Under the pieces are notes generated by a model. That model searched no databases and was not told where the DNA came from. It saw nothing but the letters and a program-made list of their open reading frames with translations. Both the position numbers and the translations under genes were made by a program. This document shows positions 27,736 through 28,385 of a stretch of 64,000 nt of DNA, in pieces; the stretch's first letter is position 1; every line of letters starts with the position of its first letter. This DNA is from Eledone cirrhosa (lineage: Eukaryota), in NCBI GenBank assembly GCA_964016885.1, contig OZ024744.1:17050001-17114000 (forward strand), in the 5' to 3' direction.

Positions 27736-28385
27736 CCTGTGTCAGTGTTGAACAAAAAGGTGACGTGGTTGCCTTAACACCGTACGGCTAAAATCAGGAT
27801 GTCCGTTTGTTTACAAACAGACAAAGCGGGCGTTATAATAAACGTCCGCTAAACTGATACGTACATATATATATGTGTACCTGTATGTATATATATATAT
27901 ATATATATATATATATATATATATATATATATATATATATATATATATATATATGCATGCTACTGTACGTCTGTATACATATATGTATGTACGTATACAT
28001 AATACTTACATTTAAGTAAGTGCCGTACTAAGAGTGAGAAATGAAATTTCGTTTCATTTAATTACAACTTATCGTTTTCGGTACGCCTGGCCAACTGAAC
28101 TCACTCGATATGCAAATTAGGCTGCTCAGCCGTTAATTTTCATAAGGAAAGTATATACTTTCGAACGTTCAACCATCTGGCAGAAGGGTATACGGTGCAG
28201 ATTATAGCTAAGAAGCTTGAAACTAGTACATCGTTCCTGTGTCAGTGTTGAACAAAAAGGTGACGTGGTTGCCTTAACACCGTACGGCATAAATCCTGCT
28301 GTCCGTTTGTTTACAAACGGACAAAGCGGGCGTTATAATAAACGTCCGCTAAACTGATACGTACATATATATATGTGTACCGGTA
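27735..28385 (+). repeat. Hammerhead-containing tandem repeat (retrozyme-like), array 1
   Basis: 500-bp period (CCTGTGTCAGTG at 27736 and 28236); hammerhead at 28192-28234 with mutated core. Confidence 0.8.

What the first reader, a model, noticed from the sequence alone, without database searches (positions are those of the whole stretch)
28110..28162. Each retrozyme-like unit carries a perfect octamer and a TATA-centred palindrome upstream of the ribozyme
Seen: ATGCAAAT is exact in all five units covering it (28110, 29501, 55723 minus, 56267 minus, 61953) while flanking bases vary. About 30 bp downstream lies the 16-bp palindrome GAAAGTATATACTTTC (one mismatch in the 29.5 kb copy), then the hammerhead. 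Established: newt satellite 2 is transcribed from an internal snRNA-type promoter with an octamer. Inference: the unit carries its own promoter, so each monomer could drive transcription of the next, an architecture I know only from amphibians.
Basis: partly seen in the sequence, partly recalled or inferred. Interest (0 to 1): 0.7.

Follow-up and report, generated by a model that had tools for sequence, protein, structure and literature searches.

The report
Promoter-like hairpins in a hammerhead retrozyme
The octamer and the TATA palindrome are really present in every copy of a small hammerhead-ribozyme repeat that covers them, but both are predicted to be hairpins of a tightly folded RNA, so a built-in promoter is a plausible, untested possibility and not a shown fact.

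Summary
The motifs are real. The octamer is exact in 5 of 5 covering copies; the palindrome is exact in 5 of 6. The flanks do not vary as claimed: the octamer lies inside a 17-nt invariant run. The unit is a ~420-430 nt non-LTR retrozyme (type I hammerhead, tandem/inverted insertions in TA microsatellite, Penelope-like elements nearby) at four loci. In 4 of 4 circular folds the octamer is the 5' arm of a hairpin and the palindrome is a second hairpin. The octamer alone is not unusually conserved (P 0.06-0.12). The 53-nt block is the best-kept part around the ribozyme (6/53 variable against 33/113, p 0.008; scan-corrected p 0.19). For a promoter: octamer-TATA spacing is fixed at 42 nt, the predicted start falls just before the ribozyme, and both shared stem changes hit the octamer's partner arm. 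Against: weak TATA, no testable PSE, five related copies only. It is not an snRNA layout. Internal promoters feeding the next unit are also known from schistosome repeats, Penelope pLTRs and a plant retrozyme. Verdict: new member of a known class; promoter about 35%.

The parts
27735..28494 (+). Retrozyme insertion A: about 1.5 units; begins 6 nt after the predicted cut site and ends in (TA)n
28032..28038 (+). 5' arm of a 7-bp helix that pairs with 28100-28106, just upstream of the octamer; one compensatory pair in copy E
   Evidence: helix 3
28102..28118 (+). 17-nt run invariant in 5 of 5 copies; contains the octamer
28110..28117 (+). Octamer ATGCAAAT; predicted 5' arm of a hairpin; candidate POU-factor site (inferred)
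28134..28144 (+). Partner arm of the octamer hairpin: an inverted octamer with one mismatch, a different one in copies A/B than in C/D/E/F
   Evidence: (helix 5)
28147..28162 (+). 16-bp palindrome; predicted 6-bp hairpin; holds a weak TATA-like site starting at 28152
28177..28245 (+). Type I hammerhead: extended, bulged stem I, U.U at the base of stem II, one-pair stem III with palindromic loop; core 28198-28204 is mutated in this copy; predicted cut 28228/28229
28325..28350 (+). Hairpin with 3 compensatory pairs and an invariant 10-mer (28333-28342) containing AATAAA
   Evidence: (helix 13)
29317..29967 (+). Insertion B: octamer 29501, palindrome 29538 (1 mismatch), intact core 29589-29613, predicted cut 29619/29620
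55358..55773 (-). Copy C: octamer 55723-55730, palindrome 55678-55693, intact core 55642-55618
55935..56460 (-). Copy D: octamer 56267-56274, palindrome 56222-56237, core 56186-56162; period 430 nt
56459..56696 (+). Inverted fragment G joined to the 5' end of D; starts 1 nt after the predicted cut site and ends at the same internal point as D
61543..62362 (+). Tandem F-E-E2; cut-to-cut monomer 61646-62063 (418 nt); F core intact; E octamer 61953, core mutated, 8-nt deletion after the palindrome
57200..58960 (-). Penelope-like open frame (weak RT match, E 4e-4) with its own small hammerhead at 56937-56910; abuts the C/D/G locus across a TA tract; candidate type of mobiliser (inferred)
17445..19229 (+). 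Penelope-like RT + GIY-YIG open frame; candidate type of mobiliser (inferred)

Best explanation
The octamer and the TATA palindrome are two neighbouring predicted stem-loops in the RNA of a roughly 420-430 nt hammerhead repeat (a non-LTR retrozyme), likely kept because the RNA has to fold and not because they act as a promoter. Shown: tandem units, hammerhead anatomy, hairpin potential, and compensatory changes in other stems. Inferred cycle: a tandem array is transcribed, most simply by read-through from outside; hammerheads, likely acting as dimers through the palindromic stem III, cut out monomers that would circularise; a Penelope-like RT/GIY-YIG enzyme would copy cut or multimeric RNA from internal AT-rich points into TA microsatellites, giving partial tandems and inverted 5' pieces. 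On this reading the exact octamer is a 1-4% coincidence of an AT-rich stem.
For: 7 of 8 octamer bases pair with the arm at +24..+34 at probability 0.71-1.00 in 4 of 4 circular folds; the palindrome folds on itself in all four; whole units fold at z -5.0 and -6.6 (-11 and -14 with expanded TA tracts; 40 shuffles each). A named structure of 86 pairs is 95.9% paired against 30-43% when slid, with 5 compensatory pairs in three other helices. Perfect palindromes of 16 nt or more are the style of this unit: 4 in D, 2 in F-E, 1 in A without its TA tract, against 1-2% of shuffles. The TATA-like site does not fit the recalled TATAWAWR pattern, while 4-5 sites elsewhere in D and F-E do. Octamer invariance alone has P 0.06-0.12; runs of 21 and 17 nt are equally invariant elsewhere; scan-corrected p for the block is 0.19. 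On changes shared by two or more copies the block (3/53) does not beat the ribozyme (11/91, p 0.17). 2 of 6 5' ends lie within 6 nt of the cut site, none at the predicted start; 6 of 6 3' ends run into TA tracts. A review states that retrozymes seem to lack promoters (PMC7761336, passage).
Against: Neither hairpin shows a compensatory change (0 of 15 and 0 of 6 pairs), so neither is proven by covariation; for the whole structure, 5 compensatory pairs are reached by 40 of 500 shuffles. Folded alone, the 71-nt region is only modestly stable (z -0.7 to -2.6). Both shared changes in the octamer stem fall on the partner arm, and every copy keeps one mismatch there while the octamer is unchanged. 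The block is less variable than its surroundings even without CpG columns (6/50 against 78/273, p 0.008; against 27/107, p 0.04; uncorrected). An octamer with TATAWA 10-60 nt downstream occurs in only 0.1-0.6% of shuffles.
Confidence: 0.52

Rival explanations
1. Dual use: in DNA the block is a compact Pol II promoter (octamer at about -72, TATA-like site at about -30, no PSE needed); in RNA it folds into two hairpins. Transcription would start near 28182, just inside the outer arm of stem I and about 47 nt before the cut, run through the next unit and end at its ribozyme, so each cut-to-cut monomer carries a promoter to its new site.
For: Octamer-to-TATA distance is 42 nt in 5 of 5 copies; TATA-to-stem I is 25 nt and TATA-to-cut 77 nt in 4 of 5. 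With the recalled ~30-nt TATA-to-start rule, the transcript would begin right at the ribozyme. The block is the best-kept part near the ribozyme (6/53 against 33/113, p 0.008), with or without CpG columns. The octamer arm is frozen while its partner changed twice. Octamer plus downstream TATAWA is rare in shuffles (0.1-0.6%). Internal promoters exist in newt, schistosome, Penelope and plant relatives. A start about 47 nt upstream of the cut is recalled for newt ovary transcripts; I could not verify it.
Against: Scan-corrected p is 0.19. Two changes on one arm is a 1-in-4 event. The TATA match is weak and palindromic, so it has no direction of its own. Copy E lost 8 nt between TATA and stem I (its core is also mutated, so this is weak). 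0 of 6 insertion 5' ends lie at the predicted start. An invariant AATAAA downstream could end a Pol II transcript before the next ribozyme. No expression data.
Confidence: 0.33
2. A true snRNA-type promoter as in newt satellite 2 (octamer plus PSE, SNAPc-dependent, Pol II), or a U6/H1-like Pol III version.
For: Compact promoters with octamer, PSE and TATA exist: the mouse H1 core is 84 bp (PMC11340601, passages). The 34 nt between octamer and TATA are well conserved.
Against: With the TATA-like site at about -30 the octamer sits at about -72 to -65, overlapping the PSE slot of a flatworm U6 promoter (PSE -71 to -51, octamer -253 to -246; PMC5460494) and leaving no room for the octamer-Staf-PSE-spacer-TATA order of H1. 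Sense-strand T6 runs in D and F-E, and T4 in 3 of 3 units tested, lie before the next ribozyme and would likely stop Pol III. No snRNA gene is in the window, so the host PSE is unknown.
Confidence: 0.07
3. The block is a sequence-specific RNA or cDNA site (for the Penelope RT, a ligase or a host RNA-binding protein), or a decayed tRNA-type A/B-box promoter as in schistosome repeats.
For: Sequence, and not only pairing, looks frozen in the block. An A-box/B-box-like pair at 45-nt spacing overlaps it in 3 of 5 copies.
Against: The A/B-box score is not above shuffles (P 0.11-1.0). ARAGORN finds no tRNA in the units, nor does Rfam. No similarity to the Penelope ends in the window.
Confidence: 0.08

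Closest known systems
Metazoan non-LTR retrozymes (Cervera and de la Pena 2020, PMC7229834; Li et al. 2026, bioRxiv 10.64898/2026.07.22.740005)
   Same: Short tandem units with one type I hammerhead each, GC 31-37%, no ORF, highly self-paired predicted circle, co-occurrence with Penelope-like elements.
   Different: Monomer about 420-430 nt, slightly above the 170-400 nt range of the 2020 paper and within the 51-972 bp of the 2026 preprint. It carries a TA-rich hairpin and lies in TA microsatellites. No similarity to the pLTRs in this window was found. Neither paper analyses promoters in the parts read.
Newt satellite 2 / axolotl HHR_Amex1 and Amex2 retrozymes
   Same: One-pair stem III with a palindromic tetraloop (as Amex1) and a U.U mismatch at the base of stem II (as Amex2), per PMC7229834. 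Newt satellite 2 has an internal snRNA-type Pol II promoter (passage in PMC2220036).
   Different: No sequence comparison was possible. The newt promoter's octamer and PSE are recalled, not read. Here no PSE is identified and a TATA-like site is invoked. The host is probably not an amphibian (inference).
Schistosoma Sm-alpha hammerhead SINE-like repeats
   Same: Promoter inside the unit; the upstream unit transcribes the next one (PMC6765202, passages).
   Different: Those use a tRNA-derived Pol III promoter; here there is no tRNA and no significant A/B box.
Penelope-like element pseudo-LTRs
   Same: Type I hammerhead, partial tandems, inverted 5'-truncated piece (10.1101/2021.04.23.441226, passages; a (TA)n target bias is stated there for Naiads); promoter in the upstream pLTR.
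   Different: No ORF is attached; the ribozyme has a long bulged stem I; the 7 other hammerheads in the window have no octamer within 150 nt upstream (0 of 7).
Compact octamer + TATA Pol II promoters (histone H2B and immunoglobulin type; recalled)
   Same: Octamer a few tens of bases upstream of a TATA site, no PSE.
   Different: Vertebrate gene promoters; a recalled resemblance only, not tested.

Membership tests
Non-LTR retrozyme | Type I hammerhead in each unit | tested here: met
   Core pattern intact in 4 of 6 copies, broken in A and E; stem I has a compensatory pair. Rfam HH9 matches only weakly (17.6 bits, E 0.052, gathering 52); no hit at gathering or in 29300-30000.
Non-LTR retrozyme | Short tandem units of a few hundred bp, low GC, no ORF | tested here: met
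   Periods 418, 430 and about 500 nt (with TA expansion), GC 31-37%; the only frames of 120 aa or more inside units are microsatellite translations.
Non-LTR retrozyme | Highly self-paired predicted circular RNA | tested here: met
   66-72% paired; z -5.0 and -6.6 for the units without TA expansion; covariation in three helices.
Non-LTR retrozyme | Autonomous Penelope-like elements in the same genome | tested here: met
   RT + GIY-YIG at 17445-19229 above Pfam cut-offs; weaker matches at 57200-58960 and 12970-13374.
Non-LTR retrozyme | Self-cleavage and accumulation of linear and circular monomers | not testable with these tools
   Needs in vitro transcription and northern blots. Indirect only: 2 of 6 5' ends lie within 6 nt of the predicted cut.
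Non-LTR retrozyme | Target-site duplications, when present | not tested
   Junctions lie in microsatellite; no formal search was made.
snRNA-type promoter (newt satellite 2 type) | Octamer element | tested here: met
   Exact in 5 of 5 covering copies.
snRNA-type promoter (newt satellite 2 type) | PSE matching the host's snRNA genes | not testable with these tools
snRNA-type promoter (newt satellite 2 type) | Octamer placed upstream of a PSE slot (about -70 to -50) | tested here: inconclusive
   If the TATA-like site is at -30, the octamer overlaps the PSE slot, which does not fit. If there is no TATA the start site is unknown and spacing cannot be judged.
snRNA-type promoter (newt satellite 2 type) | Mapped start site and octamer-dependent activity | not testable with these tools
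   No RNA data.
Pol III type 3 promoter (U6/H1-like) | No T-run terminator between the start and the next ribozyme | tested here: not met
   T6 in D and F-E, T4 in 3 of 3 units tested.
tRNA-derived Pol III internal promoter (Sm-alpha type) | A box and B box above chance, or a tRNA fold | tested here: not met
   P 0.11-1.0 against shuffles (recalled consensus motifs); no tRNA in the units.

The most novel reading that the evidence does not exclude
An invertebrate retrozyme carries its own compact octamer-TATA Pol II promoter, written into two RNA hairpins and placed so that transcription starts at the edge of the hammerhead. Every circle would then carry a promoter to its new site: the same solution as newt satellite 2, reached with a different promoter type, and contrary to the stated view that retrozymes lack promoters.
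Probability: 0.33. Interest if true: 0.62.

Novelty: new member of a known kind. Interest (0 to 1): 0.38.

Why it matters
Animal retrozyme circles reach high levels in the tissues tested, yet how they are transcribed is open: a 2020 review says they seem to lack promoters and proposes read-through (PMC7761336), while newt and schistosome repeats have internal promoters. This family gives a sharp test, because the candidate element sits in a stem: changing the octamer while repairing the stem separates DNA function from RNA function. If it is a promoter, retrozymes seed portable promoters across a repeat-rich genome. If not, this is an ordinary new retrozyme family, and a warning that promoter-like motifs in self-paired repeats are often stems.

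Tried and rejected
Rfam at gathering thresholds: 0 hits in the window. At E<=10, 29300-30000 gave 58 matches, mostly TA-tract miRNA models and no hammerhead; the C copy gave a weak HH9 match. tRNA-type A/B-box promoter: not above chance. U6-like Pol III reading: disfavoured by T-runs. A-to-I editing footprint in the copies: rejected; single-copy changes show A>G 8 against T>C 6, while C>T 16 and G>A 13 dominate. CpG decay as the reason the block looks conserved: does not remove the effect. Origin from a pLTR in this window: no similarity found. Octamer upstream of the other hammerheads: 0 of 7. RNAalifold on alignment A2 paired the octamer region differently, most likely because two rows are truncated there; single-copy folds and named-structure counts were used instead. 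The first conservation count cut copy E short and was redone. Two helices (columns 328-344 and 370-393) were left out because the alignment is out of register there. One search ended in a script error. Searches for the details of the newt promoter returned only a citing passage; Coats et al. 1994 was not read. The supplement of PMC7229834 could not be read, and preprint supplements are closed, so published retrozyme sequences were not checked for an octamer or for this family.

Full report
Observation. The octamer is exact in 5 of 5 units that cover it; the other 5 window matches lie outside the units, with 4.6 expected by chance for the whole window. The palindrome is exact in 5 of 6 copies and has one mismatch in copy B. 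The flanks are not variable: 28102-28118 is invariant in all five, as is 28141-28157. The copies are 80-96% identical, so five matches are one ancestral event, with a chance of 1-4% per unit.

What the unit is. Four loci hold tandem or partial copies: 27735-28494, 29317-29967, 55358-56696 and 61543-62362. The period is 418 nt cut to cut in F-E, 430 nt in D, and about 500 nt where an internal TA tract has expanded. Each unit has a type I hammerhead: a long bulged stem I, a U.U pair at the base of stem II, and a one-pair stem III whose loop is palindromic in 4 of 6 copies.

Mobility. All 6 3' ends run into TA tracts; D and G stop at one internal point, B2 and E2 at another. Fragment G is inverted against D and starts 1 nt after the predicted cut; A starts 6 nt after it. 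Inverted 5' pieces and partial tandems are Penelope traits, and a (TA)n target bias is stated for the Naiad clade (10.1101/2021.04.23.441226, passages). Internal initiation of reverse transcription is shown for one Penelope element, there without homology to the target (PMC11167929, abstract only). The window encodes Penelope-like RT/GIY-YIG frames. A 2026 preprint links retrozymes to pLTRs (10.64898/2026.07.22.740005, parts 1-3 of 5 read), but I found no similarity between this unit and the pLTRs in the window. Mobilisation by a Penelope enzyme is an inference. The named eukaryotic relatives among the best 120 hits of one ORF are bivalve molluscs, and most hits are unnamed; the host is probably a marine invertebrate, which is not established.

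RNA structure covers both motifs. In 4 of 4 circular folds, 7 of 8 octamer bases pair with a one-mismatch inverted octamer 24-34 nt downstream (p 0.71-1.00), the 7 nt at 28100-28106 pair with 28032-28038, and the palindrome closes on itself. Units without TA expansion fold at z -5.0 and -6.6. On 86 named pairs, 95.9% of cells pair against 30-43% when slid; 11 cells show two-sided change (0 of 500 shuffles), while 5 compensatory pairs are reached by 40 of 500 shuffles (two out-of-register helices left out; the structure was derived from these sequences). Long palindromes are typical of the unit: 4 of 16 nt in D. Against this reading, neither hairpin has a compensatory pair (0 of 15, 0 of 6), and alone they are only modestly stable (z -0.7 to -2.6).

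The octamer alone is unremarkable: P 0.06-0.12, and 58 of 351 8-column windows are equally invariant. Five of 13 catalytic-core columns vary, so post-insertion decay dominates and invariance is a noisy guide. The 53-nt block is better kept than its surroundings: 6/53 against 33/113 (five copies, p 0.008) and against 86/305 (four copies, whole unit, p 0.005). After allowing for the choice of window, p is 0.19. The effect survives removal of CpG columns (p 0.008 and 0.04). On shared changes only, the block has 3/53 against 55/336 for the rest (p 0.026), 11/91 for the ribozyme (p 0.17) and 22/235 without the variable post-ribozyme part (p 0.29). So the block is probably constrained, but the data cannot say whether as DNA or as RNA. 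One hint favours DNA: both shared changes in the octamer stem fall on the partner arm, and every copy keeps one mismatch there; with two events this is a 1-in-4 outcome.

Promoter geometry. Octamer to TATA-like site is 42 nt in 5 of 5 copies; TATA to stem I is 25 nt and to the cut 77 nt in 4 of 5. With the recalled 30-nt rule, transcription would start near 28182, at the edge of the ribozyme, which is what a self-renewing unit needs. An octamer with TATAWA 10-60 nt downstream arises in 0.1-0.6% of shuffles, although shuffles understate how often this family puts TA runs in hairpin loops. The site misses the recalled TATAWAWR pattern, which 4-5 other sites in D and F-E match. The layout is not snRNA-like: in a flatworm U6 promoter the predicted octamer is at -253 and the PSE at -71 to -51 (PMC5460494, passages), and the compact H1 core lists octamer, Staf site, PSE, spacer and TATA (PMC11340601, passages). 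T6 and T4 runs before the next ribozyme argue against Pol III, and an A/B-box reading fails against shuffles (recalled motifs). If it is a promoter, it is most likely a compact Pol II octamer-TATA type.

Prior art. Newt satellite 2 (snRNA-type, Pol II) and schistosome repeats (Pol III) have internal promoters (PMC2220036, passages; Coats 1994 seen only as a reference title, its octamer recalled). Upstream-drives-downstream is described for schistosome SINEs and Penelope pLTRs (PMC6765202, passages), and a tobacco retrozyme LTR starts transcription upstream of its ribozyme (PMC9695139, passages). The architecture is therefore not amphibian-only. A review nonetheless says retrozymes seem to lack promoters (PMC7761336, passages); PMC4918200 has no occurrence of 'promoter' in its main text. 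No paper on an octamer promoter in an invertebrate retrozyme appeared in searches. The library lacks most subscription journals and old scans, and the supplements I could not see may hold this family.

Verdict. A new member of the non-LTR retrozymes. My estimates: hairpins only 0.52; dual-use Pol II promoter 0.33; snRNA-type promoter 0.07; other binding site or A/B box 0.08. Interest 0.38; 0.62 if the promoter is real.

Noticed in passing
window 28333-28342 and 7 other copies: A 10-mer TTATAATAAA is invariant in 8 of 8 copies inside the most variable part of the unit (45% invariant; P 0.01 for such a run) and caps a stem with 3 compensatory pairs. It contains AATAAA with a CA 21 nt downstream and a TG-rich stretch after it, like a poly(A) site. 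It is the clearest sequence-level constraint in the unit.
   Followed up: partly
window 46044-46008 (-), 46572-46609 (+), 47136-47100 (-), 49645-49681 (+): A second hammerhead family with a 5-bp stem I and a TATATATA palindrome in place of stem III, in a cluster of short repeats; no ORF linked.
   Followed up: partly
window 63008-62980 (-), 56937-56910 (-), 11704-11676 (-): Minimal hammerheads in Penelope pLTR-like repeats (also 13525-14022 and 62754-63523), a third hammerhead type in one 64-kb window.
   Followed up: partly
window 61543-62362 and 55358-56460: Neighbouring monomers in one array differ at sites shared with other loci (E shares the stem III loop variant with D, not with F; C mixes A/B-type and D/F-type segments). 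This suggests templates made of mixed monomers, or recombination.
   Followed up: no
window 56459-56460: The inverted piece G and copy D join at a short shared sequence, and both end at the same internal AT-rich point, as if two cDNAs were primed from opposite strands.
   Followed up: partly
window 17445-19229 (+): A 594-codon uninterrupted Penelope-like RT + GIY-YIG frame, 44-61% identical to its best 120 hits, flanked by an 810-bp inverted repeat (16016-16825 / 19808-20647).
   Followed up: partly
window 51246-52160 (-): PIF1-like helicase fragment (Pfam E 5e-54), probably a Helitron remnant.
   Followed up: no
window 40546-42856: Three tandem copies of about 800 bp, 95-98% identical, each with a (TCT)n tract.
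   Followed up: no
window 26900-27787 (-), 3122-4874 (+): Non-LTR retrotransposon RT fragments; the first ends at the left junction of retrozyme insertion A.
   Followed up: no
window 862-945 (+): ARAGORN tRNA-Thr call inside a GC-rich repeat, not supported by Rfam; probably spurious.
   Followed up: no
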